64,000 nucleotides of DNA from Octopus vulgaris (taxonomy: Eukaryota), in assembly GCA_951406725.2 (NCBI GenBank), contig OX597817.1, positions 31,496,001 to 31,560,000 of the forward strand, in the 5' to 3' direction. The notes under the pieces are model-generated. The model saw only the letters and a program-made list of their open reading frames with translations. It was not told the origin of the DNA and did not search any database. Shown here in pieces: positions 3,451-50,236 of the stretch. The position numbers and the translations under genes were made by a program. Within the stretch, counting starts at the first letter, position 1. Every line of letters begins with the position of its first letter.

Positions 3451-4251
3451 TAGTTCTAAGCTCTTACGTATCGTTTGAGCTGCAAGATATTGCAGTCAAA
3501 TCTCGAACGACCACCATTACAAATACGACTCTGATATTGGTGTATTTGTCAGATATTCGTAGGAATACAATATACAGAGAGACAGACTGTTTTGTCGGCC
3601 ATTTGGCAGACGTGCTAGTTAATATTTTTCCTGAGAGTACGCCAATTTTAAGGACATAGGCACACAAAGGAAAACCAATGCTGGTGCATCTAATTACTGG
3701 GCGAAATGGCAGGATTTCAAGCTAAATCTCAATCTAATAGCAATGTATCTATTAATTAATTAATTACAGGATTCATGGGGAAGCTTTTTATGGTTTAAAC
3801 ATTTCATCAGAACAAGTGTGGTAATACAACATAGAGTTAAAACTATTAACTTCATTAAAAGTCACGCATTGAATAACTGCTTGAATGTAGATTCATATTA
3901 GTATAAGCGATGCGAGTTCAGCAAAATATTATTGCATGTTGAAGAACGGTGTTTGTCAAAGAAACAATATTTGAGAGACGCTTTAGACTTAGTGCTTGTT
4001 TTTAAGTTAAAACGACTTATTTTGTGATGAGAATTGGTATTAGTTCGAGTCTCTGCAAGAGGAGAAGACAAACATTCTCAATAAAACTGAAGCATTCAAG
4101 AATAAAATAAACGTAATGGAAACATTCGGTACAGAATGACAGTTTTGAAATGTATTACCATAGTGATTTATCTGTGAAAAAAAAATGACTTTTAATTCTA
4201 CTATGCAAATGATACATAATCAAACATAATGAGGAATTATGCCCATTATTT

Positions 4252-4739
<488 letters not shown>

Positions 4740-4807
4740 TTTGTATTAGACATCACCAAACGGAATCAATGGAACAAGGAAAGTTTATTATTATTATTAT
4801 TATTATT

Positions 4808-8125: not shown

Positions 8126-8183
8126 AGTACGAAATTTCATTTCCTGAATGATTGCAAAATGAAAAAGCTTTAATTAATCCTTT

Positions 8184-8720
8184 GGCATTCTTTCGATATA
8201 ACTCGACAAAATCAAAACACTTCACCGGGTATTTCCGTGGAAGCAAATGACAGTTCGATTCTGTTTTCTGCTTGGAAATTTTCGGATTTTACATACACAC
8301 ATGACACAGGTAAGAACAAATATGCAAGGCTTTTTTTTCTTCAAGTTTAAAATGAGACATTGCTGGCATAATCTCATTATATCTATACCCCACAAGGTGC
8401 GTGCTTAGTCGTTAGGGTGTCAGCATTATGATCGTAAGATTGTGGTTTCGATTCCTGGACCGGGCGACGCGTTGTGTTCTTGAGCAGAACACTTCCTTTC
8501 ACGTTGCTCCAGTCCACTCAGCTGGCAAAAATGAGTAACGCTGGGATGGACTGGCGTCCCATCCAGCTGGGGAACACATACGCCACAGAAACCGGGAAAC
8601 CGGGCCCATGAGCCTGGCTAGGCTTTAAAGGGCGCATTTATTTATTATTATACTCCACAACTCACGGAAATACCCGAAGTGAAATGTCTCGACCTTGTCG
8701 AGCTGTATCGAAGGAATGCC
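8184..8720. mobile_element. 537-bp MITE (GGC..GCC ends, ~57-bp TIRs) carrying a nested tRNA-derived SINE (8396-8648)
   Basis: TIR GGCATTCTTTCGATATAACTCGACAAAATCAAAAC.. / ..GTCGAGCTGTATCGAAGGAATGCC; SINE TSD TATAC(C/T)CCACAA at 8384-8395 and 8649-8660; highly similar to 45535-46071. Confidence 0.85.
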
Positions 8721-9485: not shown

Positions 9486-9624
9486 ATATATGTATTTCCG
9501 TTTATACGAAGGCAAAATAGGTAATGACATGGCTATACTGTACATATTTTTCATTTGTTCATAAGTGAAAAAAATGCACGCTAAATATATGAAAAATAGA
9601 GCGATTCCATTTTCATATGCTCGA

Positions 9625-9661
<37 letters not shown>

Positions 9662-9662
<1 letters not shown>

Positions 9663-10568
9663 CTGAGGACAACAACATGCAGTTTAATGCAGGTAAGTTC
9701 CAGGCCCTGCGCTACTGGCACACAAAGGTAAATGACGTGAAGACTGGATACACTGGCCCAGGAAGAATTGCAATCCCTGAGTCAAAATCAGTGCGTGACC
9801 TGGGCATTGACATGAGCAATGATGCATCTTTCCAAATGCATATTGCTAATCTGGTGATAAAATGCAGACGGCTAGCTGGATGGATTCTCCGAACTTTCAG
9901 AACAAGAGAGAAGGAGACACTGATGGTCCTATGGAAAACATTTGTCCTCAGCCGCTTGGACTACTGCTCCCAACTTTGGTCACCACACAATATAAAACAA
10001 ACAGCAGAACTCGAAGCAACTCAGAGAAGCTACACAAAGAAAATCGTCTCAATGCAAAATGTCAGCTACTGGGAAAGACTGAAGGTATTAAACCTCTTCT
10101 CCCTGGAGCGGAGGCGGGAGAGATATGCAGTAATATACATCTGGAAAATCCTGGAGGGTCTTGTCCCAAACTTTGGCATTCAAAGTTACTCCAACCGCAG
10201 AACGGGCGCCGCTGCGTGGTGCCAAGGATTCCAACATCACCATCAAAATACAGGTCCAGATACTGCAACAGCTTGGGTTTCAGAGGACCACAGCTTTTCA
10301 ACATCCTCCCTAAATGCCTGAGAGACTTACATGGTGTGGATGTGGGTTTCTTTAAAACTAAACTGGATCTCTTCTTGTTGGGAGTCCCAGATGAACCTAC
10401 CTCACGACAGGAGACACGGATGCGGGCAGCAGCATCGAACTCCCTTGTTGATCAAGTGCCACGTATCAGAGGTGGATTCACAAACTAGTGTGGCTCATTC
10501 AGCGGTGGTGCCCCAGCATGGCCGCGGCCTTCGGGCTAAAACATTTTTAAGGATTTTTAAGGATTTAA

Positions 10569-32751: not shown

Positions 32752-32946
32752 TGTAACCTCGTGTGTATCGTTGGCGATTTTCTTTCTCTGTCTTCCCTTC
32801 CTTGGACCTTTCCTTTTTCTAAGTTTCTGACGAAGAGCTCCGCTCGAAACGTTAAATCCTCCTTCTTTCTTTCCTTTCCTGAGCGTCCAATAACACTATA
32901 CTTGTTCCACGTCCTCGCGTTGTTGTGTTTTCATGTTTGGATTAAC
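32752..32946 (+). mobile_element. ~200-bp hammerhead-bearing repeat (family H2)
   Basis: Between (GA)n and (TACA)n; homologous to 790-990, 40678-40880, 60203-60383. Confidence 0.8.
32823..32857 (+). ncRNA. Minimal type-I hammerhead motif (H2), intact core
   Basis: GTTT-CTGACGA(32827-32833)-A-GAGC-TCC-GCTC-GAAA(32846-32849)-CGTT-AAAT. Confidence 0.75.
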
Positions 32947-38317: not shown

Positions 38318-38532
38318 GTACACGTTTGTGTGTATGTAAACATCTGAAAGCCAAGTAAGTCTGCACACAGTCGCAGTAAATTCAACCGCACATACTAACA
38401 AGAAGACCGAAACTAAAAAAAAAAAAGAAAAAAAAACTAGTAGGAGTACATTCGGATCAGATTCCACCAGAGTAGTGCTTTTGAGTAATTTTAATTACTT
38501 CTAGTGCACTGCTTTCTAGCTGTTAGCCTGTG

Positions 38533-38592
<60 letters not shown>

Positions 38593-38636
38593 ATCCTCTT
38601 CTCCCTCTCTCCCTTTTAGTTCTTGCTCTCAGTAAA

Positions 38637-39201
38637 ATGGACCGCCGAGATCACATGGATACCGGAGGTTCACTACAAACATGTCACCCAAACACAGGAA
38701 ACCCCGGCTCGGACTATGGTAGCATGGCTATGCGTTATTTGTCACGGCCGTCACCTCGGACTTACGACTGTATGCAAGTAGGGGGTATGACTGCTGGGGC
38801 CTTAGGGTATTCTTCTTACCCGACAGATTTTGGGTTAGTGCAATCAGCTGCATATTTAAGGAATGTGTTCAATGCAACAAACAATTCGTTTCTGGCTCCA
38901 CCGCCGCACACCAATGCAGGTGGGGTTGGATCACTAGTGGACATACCCGACGGATATTGCGGGGTTAATGTAGCGGCTAAAGAAAATGCCACGAATCAAC
39001 ACCTCCACCCGGCTTATATGGGAGGACACAACAGCACACACAGTTCAGGTCTACCTACAATGGTGAAACATGATTACTATTCTGCACTCCAAGATGTAAA
39101 TACATATGGAGGACGCTTACCTGCTTCCCCCGGATCTAACCATTCTTCCAGAGAAGGTAGCCCCAACACAGACGGATATTGCAACACGGATAACGATAAA
39201 G
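38637..39201 (+). CDS. Coding exon (probable first coding exon, 188 codons + 1 nt) of a host gene; possibly a transcription-factor N-terminus such as a homeobox gene
   Basis: Only long non-repetitive, non-TE ORF; raised GC; aaaATGG start context; G/S/Y/H/P-rich protein ending SPGSNHSSREGSPNTDGYCNTDNDK; canonical donor AAG|GTAAGT at 39202; polypyrimidine tract with AG at 38618-38619 and 38631-38632 upstream. Product identity is inference only. Confidence 0.8.
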
Positions 39202-40646
39202 GTAAGTAGCTGGTTACAGGCAATCGAAATCCTTGATAACCATTTTTATCTCAAGTTGTCTCTCTTGCGCACATACACATATATACAATTTTTGAAAGGG
39301 AGATTTAGCTGCTATTTCACAGCATTGACTGTCTTAAATATCGAACGAAACGCAATGTTTTTTTTCTCAATGCCCTTTTTTTTTAGCATTCCCACAGTGA
39401 CAGACCCGTCCTTGTTGACATGGTTACAGATTAAGGCACATCCACTTCATTACGGGACATTATTTTCTTGTAACTTTTTTTAAATAATGCATATTTTTGC
39501 ATGCACAATGGTATCACCAAATTTGTTTCTATTTCAAAAACTTTGCTTCGGAACTTAAACTCCAAGATACCTTAACATGTTTATATGCATAAATACGTAT
39601 ATATACTTCTACGTATGCATGTGTTTAACATGCATCTGTGTGTGTGTGTGTGTGTGTAAGTATGCATATGTACATGTTTGACTAACACGTGCGTGTATGC
39701 CTGCATAACATCAGTGTTTGCATGTGAAACACGTGTGTGTGTGTGTGTGAATAACACGTGCGTATGTACGCAATGTATGAATAACACGTGAGCAAATGTG
39801 AATGTGTAGCAAAGTGACTAGATAGATAAGGTACTAAGGGTACCGGGTGTTTGAATTTGGTGCTGAGTGTTCTGAATCTCTTTGTATCTAGGGATAGTAG
39901 CAGGAATCCTTTTGAAGGTATTCGCCTTCAGTTCACTCAATAGGACATCTGATCATAAATTTATTTTAATTTTGTCACAAGCTAACGTCAGAACTATATA
40001 CATAACTATTATGAAGTAACACAAAATAAAGACGGTTTTCGAATTAACAATCCCAAGGTTTTAGAGAAGTTTTGATAGCAAAATTAAATTAATTATACAC
40101 ATACATGCATATATACACAAAGCATTAAGGGAGTCTGTGATCAAGAAAGGCAATCATACATTCAATTGATGCTACGTCAACCGATCACCGGAAGGTTTTA
40201 ATAAGTTATTAAGGTTGTTCCATTAAAACAGCATTTTCGACGTGGAACAATATTCGGCATGGAATATGAATTTCTGAACTAAATTTTCCCGCGTGACAAC
40301 CTTAATGACCAAGTTCACCCCCAGATGTTTTAAATTTCGAGTTGATTCGAGTTATTAGTCGCATCAACTAGTATTGTAGCATTCAGCTTCTCATGGGACA
40401 GCCACAACATCGATTCTTAGTGTTTTCTTTCTTCGTTCGTTTATAAGAAAAAATATGAAAGAGAAAAATGTCTGTTACGTTTATTCCTTTATAAATTTAA
40501 GCTTTCAAAGCTTTGAAATGTAAAGTGAAAAATAATTCATAAAAATTAGGTGCAAGCATAGTAGTGGGGTTTCGAGCAAGTGTCTTGTACAATAATCTTT
40601 GGCCGAGTAATATTATGTGAGTGAATTTGATAGACCCAAAATGTGA

Positions 40647-40946: not shown

Positions 40947-43812
40947 GACACGCATATTTGTGTGTGTTCCACACCGATTGACAACCGGTGTTGGTTTGTT
41001 TACTTAGCGGCTTCAGCAACAGAAACTGCTAGAATAAGTTCCAGCGTTAAAAAATTAAGTATTAGAGCGGTGCCCCTGCATGGCCGCTGTCCAATAACTG
41101 AAACATAATAAAAGACAAAGAGGGTTCATGCTTCAGTTCTATTAACTATTTTGTTGTACGAAATATAGGTGTCGCATCCAACCCATGCCAGCATGGACAA
41201 CGGACGTTAAATGATGATTGTAGTGTCGGTTCGTGCCAGTCTATGACTATAGATTTATTTACATTCAAAACTTTTGGATTTCTTGAAGTAAATATTTTAA
41301 GAAAACAAAAGCAATATCAAATAAATGTATTTGTAAATATGATAAAAGATAACAATTAAGAAAAATTCAAAAAGCATTTTATGTTGCGTTTAAATTTACC
41401 AAAATGATGTGTATGAATGTATACACGCCACAAAAAAAAACCCCGACAGAACCAATATTTGACTGAGAGTCCCACTTTTGACAAACTTTATTAGTTAATA
41501 CCTTTTCGAACCTTTATTTTCAATAAAGGTTCGAAAAAGTATAAACTATTTGTCGTTTCTATAAGTTCTGATAGTATATTTAATATTGGGACTATTTAGT
41601 GTCTCAAGTATTAACTCGAAATATTCAACAAAATTCTATTTAGCATGACCTGGGGCATTGAACATTTTAAATAATACACCTGATAAAAAATTACCTTGAA
41701 TTTTTCTAATAGAGCGGCTCACCTCAGGATGAGCCGTGTCGCATGCGGGCCCGCTTCTTGACAAAAGATTGCCGATGCCTGTTTTAATGATTGAAAAAAA
41801 ATTATGAGAATATCTGCTAAATTATTAAAAACTTAAAAACAAATAATAATAATAATAATAAATCTCTTTATAGTTACTTCTTCATGGCATTTAAAATTTC
41901 AAAATTAAAACTATGTGACTGAGAAAACTTTACAGCTGAAAGGTGTTATTTAGTAAAAGCATATTATAACTGTCCAGCGAGATAAGTTAGGACTTCTGGT
42001 TTCTCTAACATACTCATAATTTAGGACGACTGAAATGTTATGGATCAAATGTATTATTCCAAAACCTTTGAATGAAACTGACCCTAGCGCAAGTCACCAA
42101 TTACAAGAATTCCCAGATCGCAAATATTAGAAATCTTTAACAATTTCAATTCCATTCAAGAAGTTTTTGGTATTAAGATTTTCTAAAAGAGATCATTTTG
42201 GTGTAACCAAATTCAACAGCACACATTGAGCCTTCTTTATAAGCACATCTACAATAGGTCAAAATTAAAATTTTAAACAAGCTGACTTTCTAGTCACAGA
42301 AAAAAGTATAATATTACGTCAGTTACATACAATTTTAAATTAGAAAAAAGAAAAAATGAATTACATTTTGCAAGTCATTTATTTATATAAATTAGGAAAA
42401 GATATAAATGATTTTGCCATAGGCCAATACATTAAACTGTGGCTGACTTAATACATCTAGCAGTAATTATCTACCATGTGTTGGTGTTACAGTGTATTTC
42501 AACATCACACAATCACATACAGAAATTACACGTGCACACACATACGCTTGTAGGAATTCCATCTCCTTCCCCACCATACATACAAATGCGCGCAATCAAT
42601 TACAACATAAAATGTTTTACAAACACTGTATCACCAGCTTATACACAGAGCCAACGAGAGTGCCTGTAAGTGGTCATTCGACCAGCTAGAAATAACAACC
42701 AAATCTCACTCAAATCACATCCTACCGTCTTAGAAAAAGACATGATAATGTCGTACTGAGCTTCAATTTCATAGTGAAAAAAAGGCATTGGTCACAGCTT
42801 AAACACCTTTAATCATAAGTATCTTTAAAGAACATAAGGATCCTATACACAGTATCTATGTCCCTCACGCATACGTCCGTTTCATAAACACACACGCACA
42901 CAGAATTGCCATACATACAATCACACATGACAAGGATCATTTCCTCTGCTTTTGTCTCTCACATTCACACACACAAACAAAAGTCTCAGTCTCTTTCCTC
43001 CTCTCTCCCTTCTCTCGCTTACACAAAATCTTCAACACCTTTTCACAGATACTTTACATGCGCAAATCAATTAATAGTACACAACATAGATACATAGATG
43101 TCACTCTCGGTTCTCATTCAAAATGAGGATAGGTAACCCGAACCTGAAAAGAATCCAGATTAGTTAAGAACAATAAAGTGTGGTCACTAAATAAAGTTTC
43201 TAAAGTGATTACAATATCTCATTTAGGGAGAGACAGGATGGGACAGGCTTATAGTCAGAATAATTGACCTGGTACTTATTTTAAAACCCCCAAAAAAGAA
43301 ATGAAGGCAAAGTCTTACATCAGCGGGATTTAATCTCTGAATACAAGACATTTTTGTCCATTGTTCTACCGATTTTGTCAATCCGCTAAAAGCCATGTTT
43401 CACATTGACACAGGCCCAGCTATTTCAAAAGAAAGTCCACAATAGACTGAATCGATTTCTGCTATATAATATATATTATCGAACCCCGTATCTATTTTCT
43501 CACACAAGATTCCACGTATATCCCTACAGTTAATTTGTAAATTGACTTTATAATAGAACCCCATCTACCTATCTTGTGACTGTTAAAAATCCTGCTGGGG
43601 TCAACTTTGCCTTTCATCCCTCCGAGGCTGATAAAACAAACTAGTAGTCATGAGTTCTCTTCCCCACAAAATCATTATTAAAAGTGGTAAGCTGGCGGAG
43701 TCGTCAGAGCGCCGGAAACAAATGTCCTATGACATCTGTTCAGGCTCTTTAACTTCCGAGTTCAAATCCTGTCAAGGTTATACTATTCTATATTTTTGAG
43801 ATGATATACTCG

Positions 43813-44053
43813 CCAGCCTTCATCAGATATTCTGGTGGAATTTCGAACCCAACCCTTTATTTGACTAATGAGATACTCTGTTCTCATTCTTAAGGTATTC
43901 TTTTTTTGCTGATGTTATTTTTTCTGTTCGTAACGGGTTGGGTTCGAAATCCCACCAGAACACCTGATGAAGGCTGGAGAGTACATCTGCCGAAACGTTG
44001 AAGTAACAACAAACAAGGTGAGGACACCTATCTGTCCATTGTAAATAATGTAC
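43813..44053. mobile_element. Diverged H3-related hammerhead element with inverted partial copy
   Basis: CCAGCCTTCATCAG..TTCGAACCCAACCC inverted against GGGTTGGGTTCGAA..CTGATGAAGGCTGG; core CTGATGA 43964-43970, GAAACGTT 43992-43999; tail AACAACAAACAAG..TGTAAATAATGTAC. Confidence 0.7.
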
Positions 44054-44910: not shown

Positions 44911-45534
44911 CGTTGCTTTGCGCGCATTTTTTGTTTCATAAACATTTTTTTACACCCGTTGCACTATTTTTTAACCCATTGACAATGAAGTCCTGAATAT
45001 ATTGCCTGAGAATAAGAGGGGACGGCCATGATTGGAACGCTTCGCCTATAGGTCTATTTGATAAGCGCAAACGTATAGCTAAAAACCCACAATTGTATCA
45101 ACCTGAGACGAATTAGCACTTTTTATTACGATGAATGTATGCTTCCTATATAGAAACTTTTAATTAAACAAGCTTCCTGTGAGACCGTTTTCATATTTCT
45201 ATTAGGAGACATTAATTAAACAAGCTTCATAACCAAGAGACGAGATTTAGAAAATTAAATTATCTATTCCAACCAGATCTATATCTACTGTTAATATTAT
45301 GGTGTCAGCTTATTTCTATCATGATTCCATAATAAACTGTAATAAACCAATCGTTCGAATGTGACAATTCTGATTTCAATTTTCCGAAATATTGAACAGA
45401 ATTACGAATTAAATTTCGGGCCTTGTGCCTAGAGTAGGAAATATTATTTATTTGGACACATTCAATGATGTATTAGCGTTAAATTATACAAACATGCATC
45501 AACTGCCAACATATTGAATTTATGGCGACCAGTT

Positions 45535-46071
45535 GGCATTCTTTCGATATAACTCGACAAAATCAAAACATTTCACCTCGGGTATTTCCGTGGAAGCAAA
45601 TGACAGTTCGATTCTGTTTTCTGCTTGGAAATTTGCGGATTTTACATACACACATGACACAGGTAAGAACAAGTATGCAAGGCTTTTTTTTTCTTCAAGT
45701 TTAAAATGAGACATTGCTGGCATAATTTCGTTATATCTATACTCCACAAGGCGCGTGCTTAGTCGTTAGAGTGTCAGCATCATGATCGTAAGATTGTGGT
45801 TTCGATTCCTGGACCGGGCGACGCGTTGTGTTCTTGAGCAGAACACTTCCTTTCACGTTGCTCCAGTCCACTCAGCTGGCAAAAATGAGTAACGCTGCGA
45901 TGGACTGGTGTCCCATCCAGCTAGGGAACACATACGCCACAGAAACCGGGAAACCGGGCCCATGAGCCTTTAAAGGCTTTAAAGGGCGCATTTATTTATT
46001 ATACTCCACAACTCACGGAAATACCCGAAGTGAAATGTTTTGATTTTGTCGAGTTATATCGAAAGAATGCC
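45535..46071. mobile_element. Second copy of the 537-bp SINE-carrying MITE
   Basis: Same TIRs; SINE 45750-45999 with TSD TATACTCCACAA at 45738-45749 and 46000-46011. Confidence 0.9.
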
Positions 46072-46655: not shown

Positions 46656-47293
46656 TTTGTTGTTAGTATTTTGTAAGATGCTATATTATTGATGCGTTTG
46701 ATTGTACTTTTAGACAAGGCACATAACTCTGGTTGGCACATTCTAATTGGCAGGTGGCATTCCAATGTTCACAGTAAGGTCATCAATTTGATTCTAATTT
46801 TCAAAACTGATCCTGCTCATGCTAAAATGTAAAAGAAAAATGCCTAAATATTTTATACCTGCTTAATTGTTATACTTAGATCTATATACTCGTGCATAAG
46901 AATAAAAGAATATATAAAATATATAATATAAAGATCCAAGCAGGATTAATTTTATAAATGGGAAAAAAAGAACTCGATACATACTCAAAAGAATAGCAAT
47001 AAAGCTACATCTGACTCGAATGATCTAGAATGTCGTGTCAAAGTATCGTCGAAGTAGGCTTTTAGAGGTCAGTGTGGTATTGACTGAAAGAAGCCAACTA
47101 ATGGAAAAAAAGGGCTTAATGATGCACCTTACATAGTAATACTACAGGCAATTTGTGTTTCATATGGACATTTATATAGAGAGAAACTTGTGAAGTTATA
47201 GTTATTTACGGCATTCATCATTAGTAATTAGATCCTTAAACGACCATGAAGAAGCAGCTTTGTGATCAGAAGCCTTTAAACTATCTCTGTAGT

Positions 47294-47671
47294 ACAGTTC
47301 TATATTTAAGAGATAAGGAATTATGTACATTATTTACATTTGACGGATATTTGTCCTCATCTTGTTGTTAGCACAACGTTTCGGCTGATATGCCCTCCAG
47401 CCTTCATCAGGTGTCTTGGGGAAATTTCGAATTAACCATTAGCCATATGCCCACGGGCATATGGAAACGTGTTAACAACAAACAAGATGAGGACAAATAT
47501 CCGTCAAATGAAAGTAATGTACATCTCTGTAGTGTCAAAATACTTTAGGAATGAGAATCCAGGATCGAAATTTCCCCAAGACACCTGGTGAAGGTTGGGG
47601 AGTATATCAGTCGAAACGTGTTAACAACAAACAAGATGCGGACAAATATCCGTCAAATGAAAGTAATGTAC
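47294..47671. mobile_element. Second fold-back H3 element with TSD
   Basis: Inverted arms, same apex CCATATGCCC-AC-GGGCATATGG at 47443-47464; flanking ATCTCTGTAGT at 47283-47293 and 47672-47682 (also 47523-47533 through an internal duplication). Confidence 0.8.
47371..47415 (-). ncRNA. Minimal type-I hammerhead motif (H3), intact core and stem II
   Basis: Minus strand GACAC-CTGATGA-A-GGCTG-GAGGGCATAT-CAGCC-GAAA-CGTT-GTGC. Confidence 0.8.
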
Positions 47672-47867
47672 ATCTCTGTAGTGTCATATTTTTTGATATT
47701 GATTTACCCGAAATGCTAGAACATGGTTTGATGGTTATTTCTAGCAGGTCGAAGGACCATGGGGATGGTCTCTAATCGGCTCGTTATACAATGTGCTTTT
47801 GCATGGTGTGTATGTAACTTTATAAAACACAGATTGACATTTATTAATAATCATGGAAAAAATTAAC

Positions 47868-48235
47868 ATAAGAAGCTTGCTTCCCAACCACTGCATATGT
47901 CCCACTGCATAGCACCTTGGGCAAGTGTTTTCCACTATAGCCTCGTGCCGACCAAAGCCTTGTGAGTAGATTTGGTAGACGGAAACTGGAAGAAGCCCGT
48001 TGTGTGTGTGTCTGTGTATGTGTATGTCCCACTTCTCCGTCATCACTTAACAACCGATGCTGGTGCGTTTATGTCCCCGCAAATCAGCAGTTCGACAAAA
48101 GAGACCAATAGAATAAGTACTAGGCTTACAAAGAATAAGTCCTGGAGTAGATTTTCTTCAACTAACGCCCTTTACGGCGATGCTCCAGCATGGCCGCAGC
48201 CAAATGACTGAAACGAGTAAAAGAATAAAAGAATG
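47868..48235 (+). mobile_element. SINE family A
   Basis: Body and tail match consensus. Confidence 0.8.
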
Positions 48236-50236
48236 TAAACAGATTTGGTGCAAAGGAAGTGGCACCAACCCGTCATGATTACTGATACCTTAATTCAAGA
48301 GCCAATCAGTTGCTTAGTTTTAGAAGTGCTATCAGAAAACCTATGTAATGTATTTTTCATTTCTATTTATCTTTGAAAGCTCAGGCAATATCGAAGCAAA
48401 CACTCGACTTTGAATTACAAGTACACTCCACCCGGCAGGTTCTGATGCAGTTTCCTATTTCTTTATTGCCCACAAGGGGCTAAACATAGAGGGTTTTGAT
48501 GCAGTTTCCATCGACCCAAATCCACTCATAAGGTATGAATCGACCCGGGGCAGTTGAAAATAGCCTTCGCTGAAGATGCTTCATTCTTGGATTGAACCCA
48601 TGTCCTCGTGGTTGTGAAACATACAATTTTTAACCATTCGGCCATACTGTTCAAGAAACAAATGATACTTTTTCATTGCTTCTTTTCGAAATCGAACAAA
48701 ATAATCACCGGTATGAGGCATACTGAGCTGGATTCGATTATATCCATCCTTGTAACTAAGGCAAATTGTTTGGGAGAATGTTTTGAAATGGAAACTAGTA
48801 ATGTTTTTAATGGTGTAAAAACAGGTATTTTGACGTAAAAATGTTTTCTTATATAAATTTCTTTGGATTTGACTGTAATAAAATTTTGCTTGTATTTGTT
48901 GTTGCAAAATTCTTGATGTGAATTCTGTGTTGAAACCTGCATTTCAGGAGGGTCATTATACCAATAATAAACACACACACACTGGTTCCACTTCACTTTA
49001 TTTTTGTCAAATGGTTAGCCAACTGACAAATAATGAAGTAAAATTGAACGAGAGCGTTTGTTTATTATGGGCATAATGACCCTCCCAAGAAACAAAACAT
49101 GTCAAAGTTATTATGCTTATCGGTTGTTCTTCCCCTGGAAAATTCTTTAAAATATTCTTTAGGTTAATATTAAAATGTTAATAAAGATACTAAAGCCGAA
49201 ACCAGGAGTTGAAATATATAGCTACCTTGAACAAATAATGATTTTTCTAATTTAGGCACAAGGTAAGCAATTTTGAAGGGAGGGGGTTTTAGTCTGTACC
49301 AATGATTCTGGAGGGGAAGAAAGGCAAAGTTGACCTCTGCCAGATTTGAAATCAGAACTTGCAAAGAACCGGAAATGAACTAATATTATAAGATATTCGC
49401 TTCTTTATTTCTTCAAAGTATTTGTAGAATAGTCCTTACAATTCAGTTACTTTCGATCTTTCATAATTTGAGATATATTTCCACTGATGTAATTTATATA
49501 AACTAATTCATTTTTTTGAAGAAAATATTATCATTTCCATGCAAATAATAATTCTTAAAACTCTTACCGCTCACAGTTTGTATTGATTTCCAACTGAAAT
49601 TATTCCTACCCGTGACAGAGGAATTTAACATTTTTCAATTATCTCTATAGTAAATAAAGCACGCAGACTGGTTTAAACAAAATGTAAAAAAAAAAAAAAA
49701 AAGAAAACAAGAGGATCCAAGCAGTATTTCTAAACTACATCAAATTTATAAACTTTTAAGAGAAAATTTATTCAGTACATCGAATATTCTCCATTGTAGG
49801 AGAAATTTTAAAGTAATAGAAATATCGCATAATCATGCAGAAAAAAGTTTTAAAATTTCTAATGATGCTACATTTCCTAATGTAATCGGCTTCAGCAGTT
49901 TAACGAACCCTTTCCTAAAAAGAATGATAGTCAACCTCAGATAAATTTGATCTTAAAGCATAAAGGAATGTAACAAAATACTATATAGGGTATTAATTCG
50001 AATTGGCTACCCATTTTACAACATTGTTGCCCCGTTCGCTTTTTGGGAAATTATAATGGTTTAATTTATTAACTAGAACAGAGAAGGTTTAATCGATTAT
50101 ATCAACCTGATTAGTACTCTACTGCATCGACCCGACAAGACGAAACGCATACTAACTCGAACAGAATTTGGTTATATACATATATTTGTGTGTGTGTAGA
50201 TATTTAGGTAGACCACCCAACACCCATATATTCGAT

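What the first reader, a model, noticed from the sequence alone, without database searches (positions are those of the whole stretch)
47283..47686. Independent copy with the same palindromic apex, an intact hammerhead and a TSD: the fold-back belongs to the element
Seen: 43 kb from the first copy, the same apex (CCATATGCCC-AC-GGGCATATGG, 47443-47464) joins inverted arms. The minus arm has a fully canonical core and a perfect 5-bp stem II (47371-47415). ATCTCTGTAGT flanks both ends. Inference: the head-to-head form was mobilised as a unit, so it is not a locus-specific rearrangement or assembly error. This copy is the best candidate for an active ribozyme.
Basis: partly seen in the sequence, partly recalled or inferred. 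Interest (0 to 1): 0.75.

Follow-up and report, generated by a model that had tools for sequence, protein, structure and literature searches.

The report
Back-to-back Penelope retrotransposon ends
This mirror-image stretch is a pair of end repeats of a common Penelope-type jumping gene, flanked by a real insertion scar and likely stitched together afresh at each insertion around a small built-in hairpin; the layout is known, this copy is predicted to be a poor ribozyme, and the unusual part is a tRNA-like segment that may act as the element's promoter.

Summary
The apex, inverted arms, 5-bp stem II and flanking 11-mer are real, but the 11-mer also occurs inside (47523) and the hammerhead is the minimal dimer-type (extra A, no stem III loop, A-C mismatch in stem I). 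The arms are pseudo-LTR fragments of a protein-coding Penelope-like element (RT match; repeat runs into the ORF at both ends). GCCC-AC-GGGC is native sequence just 5' of a tRNA-like head. Duplications of 10 bp or more bracket 25 of 60 head-to-head loci (0 of 300 controls), so both arms arrive in one event. But breakpoints differ at every locus (15 of 15), the long arm and the 34-nt tail fall on either side, and one locus copies its own flank into the inverted arm: the pair is built per insertion, not moved as a unit. 1,721 copies have the same hammerhead core. Inverted pseudo-LTRs with junction palindromes, TSD and one-ended tail are published (PMC3846280, PMC8557442). The tRNA-like head was not found in my paper searches; this scan noted it before on other DNA of this genome.

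The parts
47283..47293 (+). Left target-site duplication ATCTCTGTAGT (last T also fits the element end)
47294..47326 (-). 34-nt PLE 'tail' (extension past the first 3' end point), present on this end only; in long copies it runs on into the ORF
47327..47431 (-). Left arm: 5'-truncated pseudo-LTR body (4 mismatches in 138 to the family majority)
47370..47415 (-). Minimal type I hammerhead: stem I 5' 47415-47411, CUGAUGA 47410-47404, extra A 47403, stem II 47402-47383, GAAAC 47382-47378, GUU to 47375, stem I 3' 47374-47370 with one A-C mismatch
   Evidence: architecture as in PMC4209133
47432..47452 (-). First 21 nt of the tRNA-like head (mutated A box; B box and TAA tract deleted)
47443..47464 (.). 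Palindromic apex; its centre GCCC-AC-GGGC (47449-47458) is native PLE sequence, the outer pairs come from the inverted copy
47464..47524 (+). Short right arm: jump from head position 10 to just after hammerhead stem II; no tail
47523..47537 (+). Internal copy of the TSD plus 4 flank bases (part of a 74-nt direct repeat, 99% identical to 47613-47686)
47538..47673 (+). Second right arm: pseudo-LTR body with a damaged hammerhead core (CTGGTGA, 47585-47591), 11 mismatches in 132 to the majority; no tail
47672..47682 (+). Right target-site duplication ATCTCTGTAGT
4240..4740 (.). The other apex copy: full head + TAA tract + body on the minus strand, short plus arm with a different breakpoint; no clear TSD
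43802..44053 (.). Third head-to-head copy of a diverged subfamily, joined without the apex

Best explanation
The locus is one insertion of two oppositely facing, 5'-truncated end repeats (pseudo-LTRs) of a protein-coding Penelope-like retrotransposon, bracketed by an 11-bp target-site duplication and likely assembled during integration rather than copied from a ready-made palindrome. Shown: the repeat reads 3' UTR - GCCC-AC-GGGC - tRNA-like head - (TAA)n - minimal hammerhead - first codons of the RT/endonuclease ORF; head-to-head loci carry TSDs, a 34-nt tail on one end only, and locus-specific breakpoints. Inferred: the element's enzyme cuts both target strands 11-14 nt apart and primes one cDNA from each, at the two internal start points that define the tail (as shown in vitro for the anole element, PMC11167929); a cDNA that reaches the native 10-nt hairpin folds back and primes on itself, making the apex, then anneals by microhomology to the other, shorter cDNA. 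The internal TSD copy here is a further template jump or a later local duplication. Predicted: the hammerhead works only as a dimer and this copy is among the weaker ones.
For: ORF link: 29 of 30 loci found with an ORF fragment go on into the same 3' UTR and about 25 into the head (by eye); RVT_1 match E 4e-9; DKG/YVDD motifs (motif names recalled); in 8 of 30 loci found with the ORF 5' part the tail runs directly into the ORF, one of them open for 309 codons across the hammerhead. Native hairpin: 459 exact UTR-hairpin-head junctions; spacer AC 63, AT 27, GT 0 in the first 100 listed. TSD: 25 of 60 vs 0 of 300. Tail on one end in 57 of 60, both ends 0; 40 of 42 in sets not chosen on the tail, P 2e-10 against independent ends. 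Built per locus: among 32 apex loci the long arm is on the AC side in 16, GT side in 9, neither 6, both 1; 15 of 15 short arms re-enter the body at different points, 10 of 15 with overlap; no site separates GT-long from AC-long arms (best P 0.09 of 216); 17 of 30 hammerhead-selected loci are head-to-head and none shows the full 22-nt apex (by eye). Paired arms share 17 non-CpG variants vs 5.9 +/- 2.3 in 2000 permutations (max 14). In L215 the right arm copies the left arm and runs on about 175 nt into an inverted copy of the locus's own left flank, as diverged as the arms (9/156 vs 7/138), before a short tailed arm and a 10-bp TSD; L073 is similar. Same architecture in print: PMC3846280, PMC8557442, PMC4209133.
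Against: At this locus the two arms share 0 non-CpG variants and the right arm is more diverged (11/132 vs 4/138), so they may come from two templates. Only 17 of about 400 arm variants are shared overall. A simple snap-back predicts AC on the long arm; 9 of 25 have GT, which needs an extra step (two hairpin-ended cDNAs annealing with a repaired mismatch, or later inversion). The internal 74-nt repeat is more alike (1 difference) than expected if made at insertion (P about 0.03 under 3.5% decay per copy). Inverted flank capture was seen in 2 clear cases of 181 loci screened and could be host replication slippage. The C-terminal endonuclease got no Pfam or PDB match; it is called GIY-YIG from recalled motifs. 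No empty site was seen, so the TSD is statistical, not direct.
Confidence: 0.8

Rival explanations
1. One reading: a pre-formed head-to-head palindrome with this apex is transcribed and mobilised as one unit.
For: 224 exact apices and 526 looser ones, all 50 loci listed with a 2-nt spacer; TSDs bracket both arms; GT-long arms could come from palindromic source loci.
Against: 15 of 15 breakpoints differ; long arm 16 vs 9 and tail 10 vs 8 on the two sides of the spacer; no variant marks either side; the constant spacer is explained by native sequence; head-to-head loci mostly lack the apex.
Confidence: 0.06
2. The short copies are a separate tRNA-derived SINE with a hammerhead tail, transcribed by polymerase III from solo copies and carried by the Penelope enzyme.
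For: 12 of the 17 hammerhead-selected loci whose arms reach the start of the head stop at -6 to +2 of it, 4 run on into the ORF (by eye); A and B boxes at tRNA spacing; one ORF copy also begins at head +4.
Against: The head is an integral part of the autonomous element's repeat, so the pile-up is equally explained by a transcript of the whole element starting there, or by polymerase stalling at the hairpin; no subfamily variant found.
Confidence: 0.2
3. Simple one-armed insertions were turned into palindromes later by host replication template switching at the hairpin.
For: The internal duplication here looks younger than the insertion and may be absent in one related species label; L215 and L073 could arise this way.
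Against: TSDs lie outside both arms and the tail is on exactly one end, which a later copy of one arm would not give; in L215 the inverted flank is as old as the arms.
Confidence: 0.1
4. Assembly error or segmental duplication.
For: Palindromes trouble assemblers; no listed contig spans the apex.
Against: Arms are only 86% alike; flanks of the two window loci are unrelated; a contig of another species label bridges the right junction 47633-47882 and 55-nt contigs ending at 47537 in two runs fit the internal duplication.
Confidence: 0.02

Closest known systems
Canonical EN+ Penelope/Poseidon elements with inverted pseudo-LTRs: Pen2a/Pen2/Pen3a of Adineta vaga (PMC3846280; 12 passages read)
   Same: Inverted pseudo-LTR at the 5' end, whole insert flanked by an 8-10-bp TSD, tail of about 31 bp on one inverted repeat, repeat includes the first ORF codons, palindromes (18 and 38 bp) at the inverted junction read as self-priming.
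   Different: There a TATA/Inr promoter and self-priming on an antisense RNA are proposed; here the repeat has a tRNA-like head and a TAA tract, TSDs are 11-14 bp, and capture of the target's own flank points to DNA-templated fold-back after joining.
Poseidon of Anolis carolinensis, PAc (PMC11167929; parts 1-2 of 4 read)
   Same: Hammerhead overlapping the ORF start; two internal RT start points delimiting the tail; both strands cut and extended; AC-rich stem-loop near the start points.
   Different: No tRNA-like head or fold-back junction described in the parts read; its hammerhead needed protein to cleave and was not needed for insertion in vitro.
Minimal type I hammerheads of metazoan PLEs (PMC4209133; parts 1-2 of 4 read)
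   Same: [quoted passage not shown]
   Different: Stem II here is 5-6 bp; this copy has an A-C mismatch in helix I.
General PLE insertion anatomy (PMC8557442; 12 passages read)
   Same: Inverted 5'-truncated copy adjacent at the 5' end; 30-40-bp tail often at one end only; formation stated to be unexplained.
   Different: The near-strict one-end rule and the hairpin hot spot are not given in the passages read.
Helenus/Ajax and Cassandra, non-autonomous LTR elements with small-RNA-derived heads (PMC10886601; abstract start and 2 passages seen); Schistosoma promoter+hammerhead SINE-like repeats (review PMC6765202, passages)
   Same: A small-RNA-gene-like segment placed in a terminal repeat or before a hammerhead.
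   Different: Those are non-coding; here the head is part of a protein-coding PLE.

Membership tests
EN+ Penelope-like element (Penelope/Poseidon type) | Single ORF with PLE-type reverse transcriptase | tested here: met
   RVT_1 E 4e-9 on L100; DKG, YGLPKIHK, YVDD in several copies (motif assignment recalled)
EN+ Penelope-like element (Penelope/Poseidon type) | C-terminal GIY-YIG endonuclease with CCHH | tested here: inconclusive
   VYSIPCSC...YKGE...R...H...H...E...N motifs at the ORF end (recognised from recall); no Pfam or PDB match
EN+ Penelope-like element (Penelope/Poseidon type) | Pseudo-LTR at both ends that includes the first ORF codons | tested here: met
   Repeat follows the ORF stop and runs in frame into the ORF start
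EN+ Penelope-like element (Penelope/Poseidon type) | Inverted 5'-truncated copy, one-ended 30-40-nt tail, TSD around the whole insert | tested here: met
EN+ Penelope-like element (Penelope/Poseidon type) | Placement within Poseidon versus other clades by RT phylogeny | not tested
   No reference RT set fetched
Minimal type I PLE hammerhead | Core CUGANGA-N-G...C-GAAA, palindromic 15.2-16.2, short helix I | tested here: met
   against PMC4209133
Canonical monomeric hammerhead | Stable stem III with loop; match to Rfam hammerhead models | tested here: not met
   No loop between AC and GU; no Rfam match at E<=10
Hammerhead ribozyme (activity) | Self-cleavage | not testable with these tools
   Needs an assay
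tRNA-derived polymerase III head | A and B boxes at tRNA spacing; collinear likeness to tRNA | tested here: met
   Both boxes in 14 of 30 copies and in the majority; 48 of 76 identical end to end with a tRNA-Arg(TCG) of this genome, score 15 vs shuffle mean 2.4, max 11 of 1000, best of 30 tRNA loci fetched. Against: no Rfam tRNA match, ARAGORN 0 of 30 at default, 13 of 30 vs 29 of 300 shuffles at relaxed cut-off
tRNA-derived polymerase III head | Transcription by polymerase III; no T4 terminators in the unit | tested here: inconclusive
   No T4 run shared by 15% or more of copies over 2.6 kb; 1 in the majority string vs 4.6, 2.5, 1.5 expected (P 0.04, 0.25, 0.5 for mono-, di-, trinucleotide shuffles). 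No transcript data
Independent SINE or non-LTR retrozyme | Non-coding unit not part of an autonomous element; tandem monomers each with a hammerhead | tested here: not met
   Part of the ORF-bearing element; the 149-nt repeat here is local and only one unit has a (damaged) core

The most novel reading that the evidence does not exclude
A protein-coding Penelope-like retrotransposon driven by a captured tRNA-type polymerase III promoter: its RNA starts at a 10-nt hairpin, a dimeric enzyme primes both target strands from two start points on one RNA (hence a tail on exactly one end), and the cDNA snaps back at the hairpin and copies itself, sometimes into the target flank. This would explain how the inverted structures typical of the whole class are made.
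Probability: 0.3. Interest if true: 0.65.

Novelty: new variant of a known kind. Interest (0 to 1): 0.35.

Why it matters
The finding as posed is a published feature of Penelope-like elements. What it adds is a high-copy natural data set on a step that reviews call unexplained: a near-strict one-tail rule, an 11-14-nt stagger, a sequence-defined fold-back point and in-place flank capture give concrete predictions for the existing in vitro system. If the tRNA-like head is a working polymerase III promoter, a protein-coding retroelement would be using SINE-type transcription, and thousands of SINE-like short copies would be by-products of it.

Tried and rejected
Rfam scans of the window, the locus and a full head+body copy gave no hammerhead or tRNA match; the miRNA matches are microsatellite hairpins below their cut-offs. 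ARAGORN found no tRNA in 20 loci. Pfam and PDB did not match the endonuclease part; the Atlas could not read it. Run search: no RNA holder listed, so nothing is said on expression. All runs laid were contigs; none listed spans the apex and no empty-site joint was among those shown (many rows not shown); left-junction contigs reach only 19-27 letters into the element, under the tool's 31-letter bar. My first reading, a separate SINE, was dropped when the ORF link appeared. A separate flipped-spacer lineage was tested and not found. T4 depletion was not significant under di- and trinucleotide shuffles. RNA cofolding of two copies did not give the double-hammerhead fold as minimum energy for this copy or a majority-like copy, so it does not rank them. 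The octopus genome paper and the dimer-cleavage paper were not held; the 1994 paper on three tRNA-derived octopus SINEs was seen only as a reference title, so the head may be one of those families, and Repbase/Dfam entries could not be checked. No supplements were read. In one search the 55-nt cut-off misfiles a few arms with indels (e.g. the 4.5-kb locus) as short; one TSD call (L076) overlaps element sequence.

Full report
Observation. The apex is at 47443-47464, with a one-mismatch copy at 4561-4582 and none in 100 shuffles. Inverted arms of 44-66 nt are 83-95% complementary. ATCTCTGTAGT occurs at 47283, 47672 and also 47523, inside a 74-nt direct repeat of 99% identity. On the minus strand the hammerhead reads GACAC CUGAUGA A [stem II, 47402-47383] GAA AC GU U GUGCU: an extra A before stem II, no stem III loop, a GUU site and an A-C mismatch in stem I. 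Rfam does not match it. This is the minimal, dimer-dependent form described for Penelope-like elements (PLEs), including the extra nucleotide and pairs on opposite strands 100-700 bp apart; a monomer did not cleave and dimers cleaved weakly (PMC4209133, parts 1-2 of 4).

What the arms are. G000 is a 2.8-Gb animal genome. Full copies read: head of 76 nt, (TAA)n, body with the hammerhead, optional 34-nt tail. One apex locus abutted an ORF fragment. Searching with it, 29 of 30 loci went on into one 3' UTR and about 25 into the head (by eye). [quoted passage not shown] Searching with the ORF 5' part, the tail ran straight into the ORF in 8 of 30 loci, in frame through the hammerhead, and one copy began at head +4. 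The arms are therefore pseudo-LTR fragments of an autonomous PLE.

The apex. The autonomous element reads CCATAATT GCCC-AC-GGGC ATATGG: 459 exact junctions, spacer AC 63, AT 27, AA 6 (one array), CA 3, GC 1, GT 0 in the 100 listed. The 10-nt hairpin and its spacer are thus native; only the outer pairs need an inverted copy. There are 224 exact apices and 526 with a free spacer, all 50 loci listed having 2 nt, against 651 exact heads and 1,721 exact hammerhead cores. Among 30 loci chosen on the hammerhead alone, 17 are head-to-head and none shows the full apex; 12 have an arm ending at -6 to +2 of the head and 4 run into the ORF (by eye). The hairpin is a hot spot for 5' ends and junctions, not a required part.

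One event, but not a moved unit. Of 60 distinct head-to-head loci, 25 have an exact TSD of 10 bp or more within 8 nt of both ends (mode 11-14) against 0 of 300 mismatched pairs; this locus is one of them. The tail is on one end in 57, neither in 3, both in 0; in sets not chosen on the tail 40 of 42, P 2e-10. Among 32 apex loci the long arm lies on the AC side in 16, the GT side in 9, neither in 6, both in 1, and the tail on the GT side in 10 and AC side in 8 of 20. All 15 short arms that rejoin the body do so at different points, 10 with overlap. No position separates GT-long from AC-long arms. Paired arms share more variants than permuted pairs (17 vs 5.9, max 14 of 2000), though this locus shares none. 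A screen of 181 loci for inverted repeats reaching into flank gave 13 rows, of which 2 are clear captures and the rest mostly microsatellite: in L215 the right arm copies the left arm, runs about 175 nt into an inverted copy of the left flank, then joins a short tailed arm ending at a 10-bp TSD, with flank and arm copies equally diverged; L073 is similar.

Mechanism. Established elsewhere: the anole Poseidon protein cuts and extends both strands and starts at two internal RNA sites that delimit the tail (PMC11167929, parts 1-2 of 4). Inferred here: one cDNA is primed from each strand of an 11-14-nt staggered cut, one from each start site; a cDNA reaching the hairpin folds back, copies itself for 0-25 nt or more, and anneals to the other cDNA. 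The GT-long class needs an extra step. The internal TSD copy is a further jump or a later slip: it differs at 1 of 74 positions (P about 0.03 if as old as the insertion), 55-nt contigs ending at 47537 in two runs fit two copies, and a contig of another species label matches the first copy and runs directly into the flank (weak hint).

Reality of the locus. The two window loci share no adjacent flank and their arms are 86-93% alike. A contig of a related species label bridges the right junction. No listed contig spans the apex, which proves nothing either way.

Ribozyme. 24 of 30 sampled copies have stem I fully paired; this one has 4 of 5. In a minus transcript of the whole locus the stem II pairs have probability 0.0 because the arms pair with each other; its own head lacks the B box; the plus-strand core is damaged. 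It is not the best candidate.

The head. It has A and B boxes at tRNA spacing (14 of 30 copies) and aligns end to end with this genome's tRNAs, best 48 of 76 with tRNA-Arg(TCG) among 30 fetched, but Rfam and default ARAGORN miss it. No T4 run is shared among copies over 2.6 kb, significant only against mononucleotide shuffles. Polymerase III use is untested.

Comparison. Inverted pseudo-LTR, TSD around the whole insert, one-ended tail, ORF start inside the repeat and palindromes at the inverted junction read as self-priming are all in PMC3846280 (passages); PMC8557442 gives the general layout (passages). A tRNA-like head in a PLE repeat did not appear in searches (listings only), but Repbase and the 1994 octopus SINE paper could not be checked. 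This scan recorded the same family reading and the one-end rule before, on other DNA of this genome; I had reached the reading before that look-up and took the lead to PMC3846280 from it.

Verdict. Real, mostly known anatomy; 'mobilised as a unit' and 'best ribozyme' are not supported. New variant of a known kind, interest 0.35.

Noticed in passing
L215 417-1425 (G000:C1:79963500-79965300): Inverted arm runs about 175 nt into a reversed copy of the locus's own left flank before a short tailed arm and a 10-bp TSD: in-place fold-back synthesis.
   Followed up: yes
L073 912-1814: Extra inverted copy of the right arm plus 58 nt of right flank (97% identical) about 90 nt left of a TSD-flanked head-to-head pair.
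   Followed up: partly
L137 1430-2000: Tail-to-tail pair, both with tails, separated by about 170 nt of flank that is itself an inverted duplication.
   Followed up: no
L182 500-2000 (G000:C2:16238300-16239100): Six-copy 150-bp tandem array of ORF end + 3' UTR + start of the head.
   Followed up: no
L037, L050 (long arms): The (TAA)n tract is followed by C-terminal fragments of what look like restriction-like-endonuclease LINEs (recalled: Dong/R4 type target such tracts); other repeats also insert there (L066, L093, L109, L120).
   Followed up: partly
window 43802-44053: Head-to-head copy of a diverged subfamily (about 80% alike), joined without the apex.
   Followed up: partly
window 32820-32870 +: A minimal hammerhead motif of an unrelated family (CTGACGA, extra A, 4-bp stem II).
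   Followed up: no
window 47899-48237 and at least 10 other places (1069, 3074, 5973, 9084, 11352, 21108, 50225, 54980, 61683): An abundant 400-bp tRNA-headed SINE-like repeat; the only long sequence shared by the flanks of the two apex loci.
   Followed up: no
window 47558-47575 + and family body: Just before the hammerhead the body has GGTTCGAAATTTCCCC, a second B-box-like motif.
   Followed up: no
window 38520-39209 +: 229-codon open frame of ordinary composition, likely a host exon.
   Followed up: no
window 9593-10488 +: Two overlapping open frames resembling the C-terminal part of a LINE reverse transcriptase.
   Followed up: no
window 8182-8720 and 45533-46071: A 540-bp repeat at 95% identity, 37 kb apart.
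   Followed up: no
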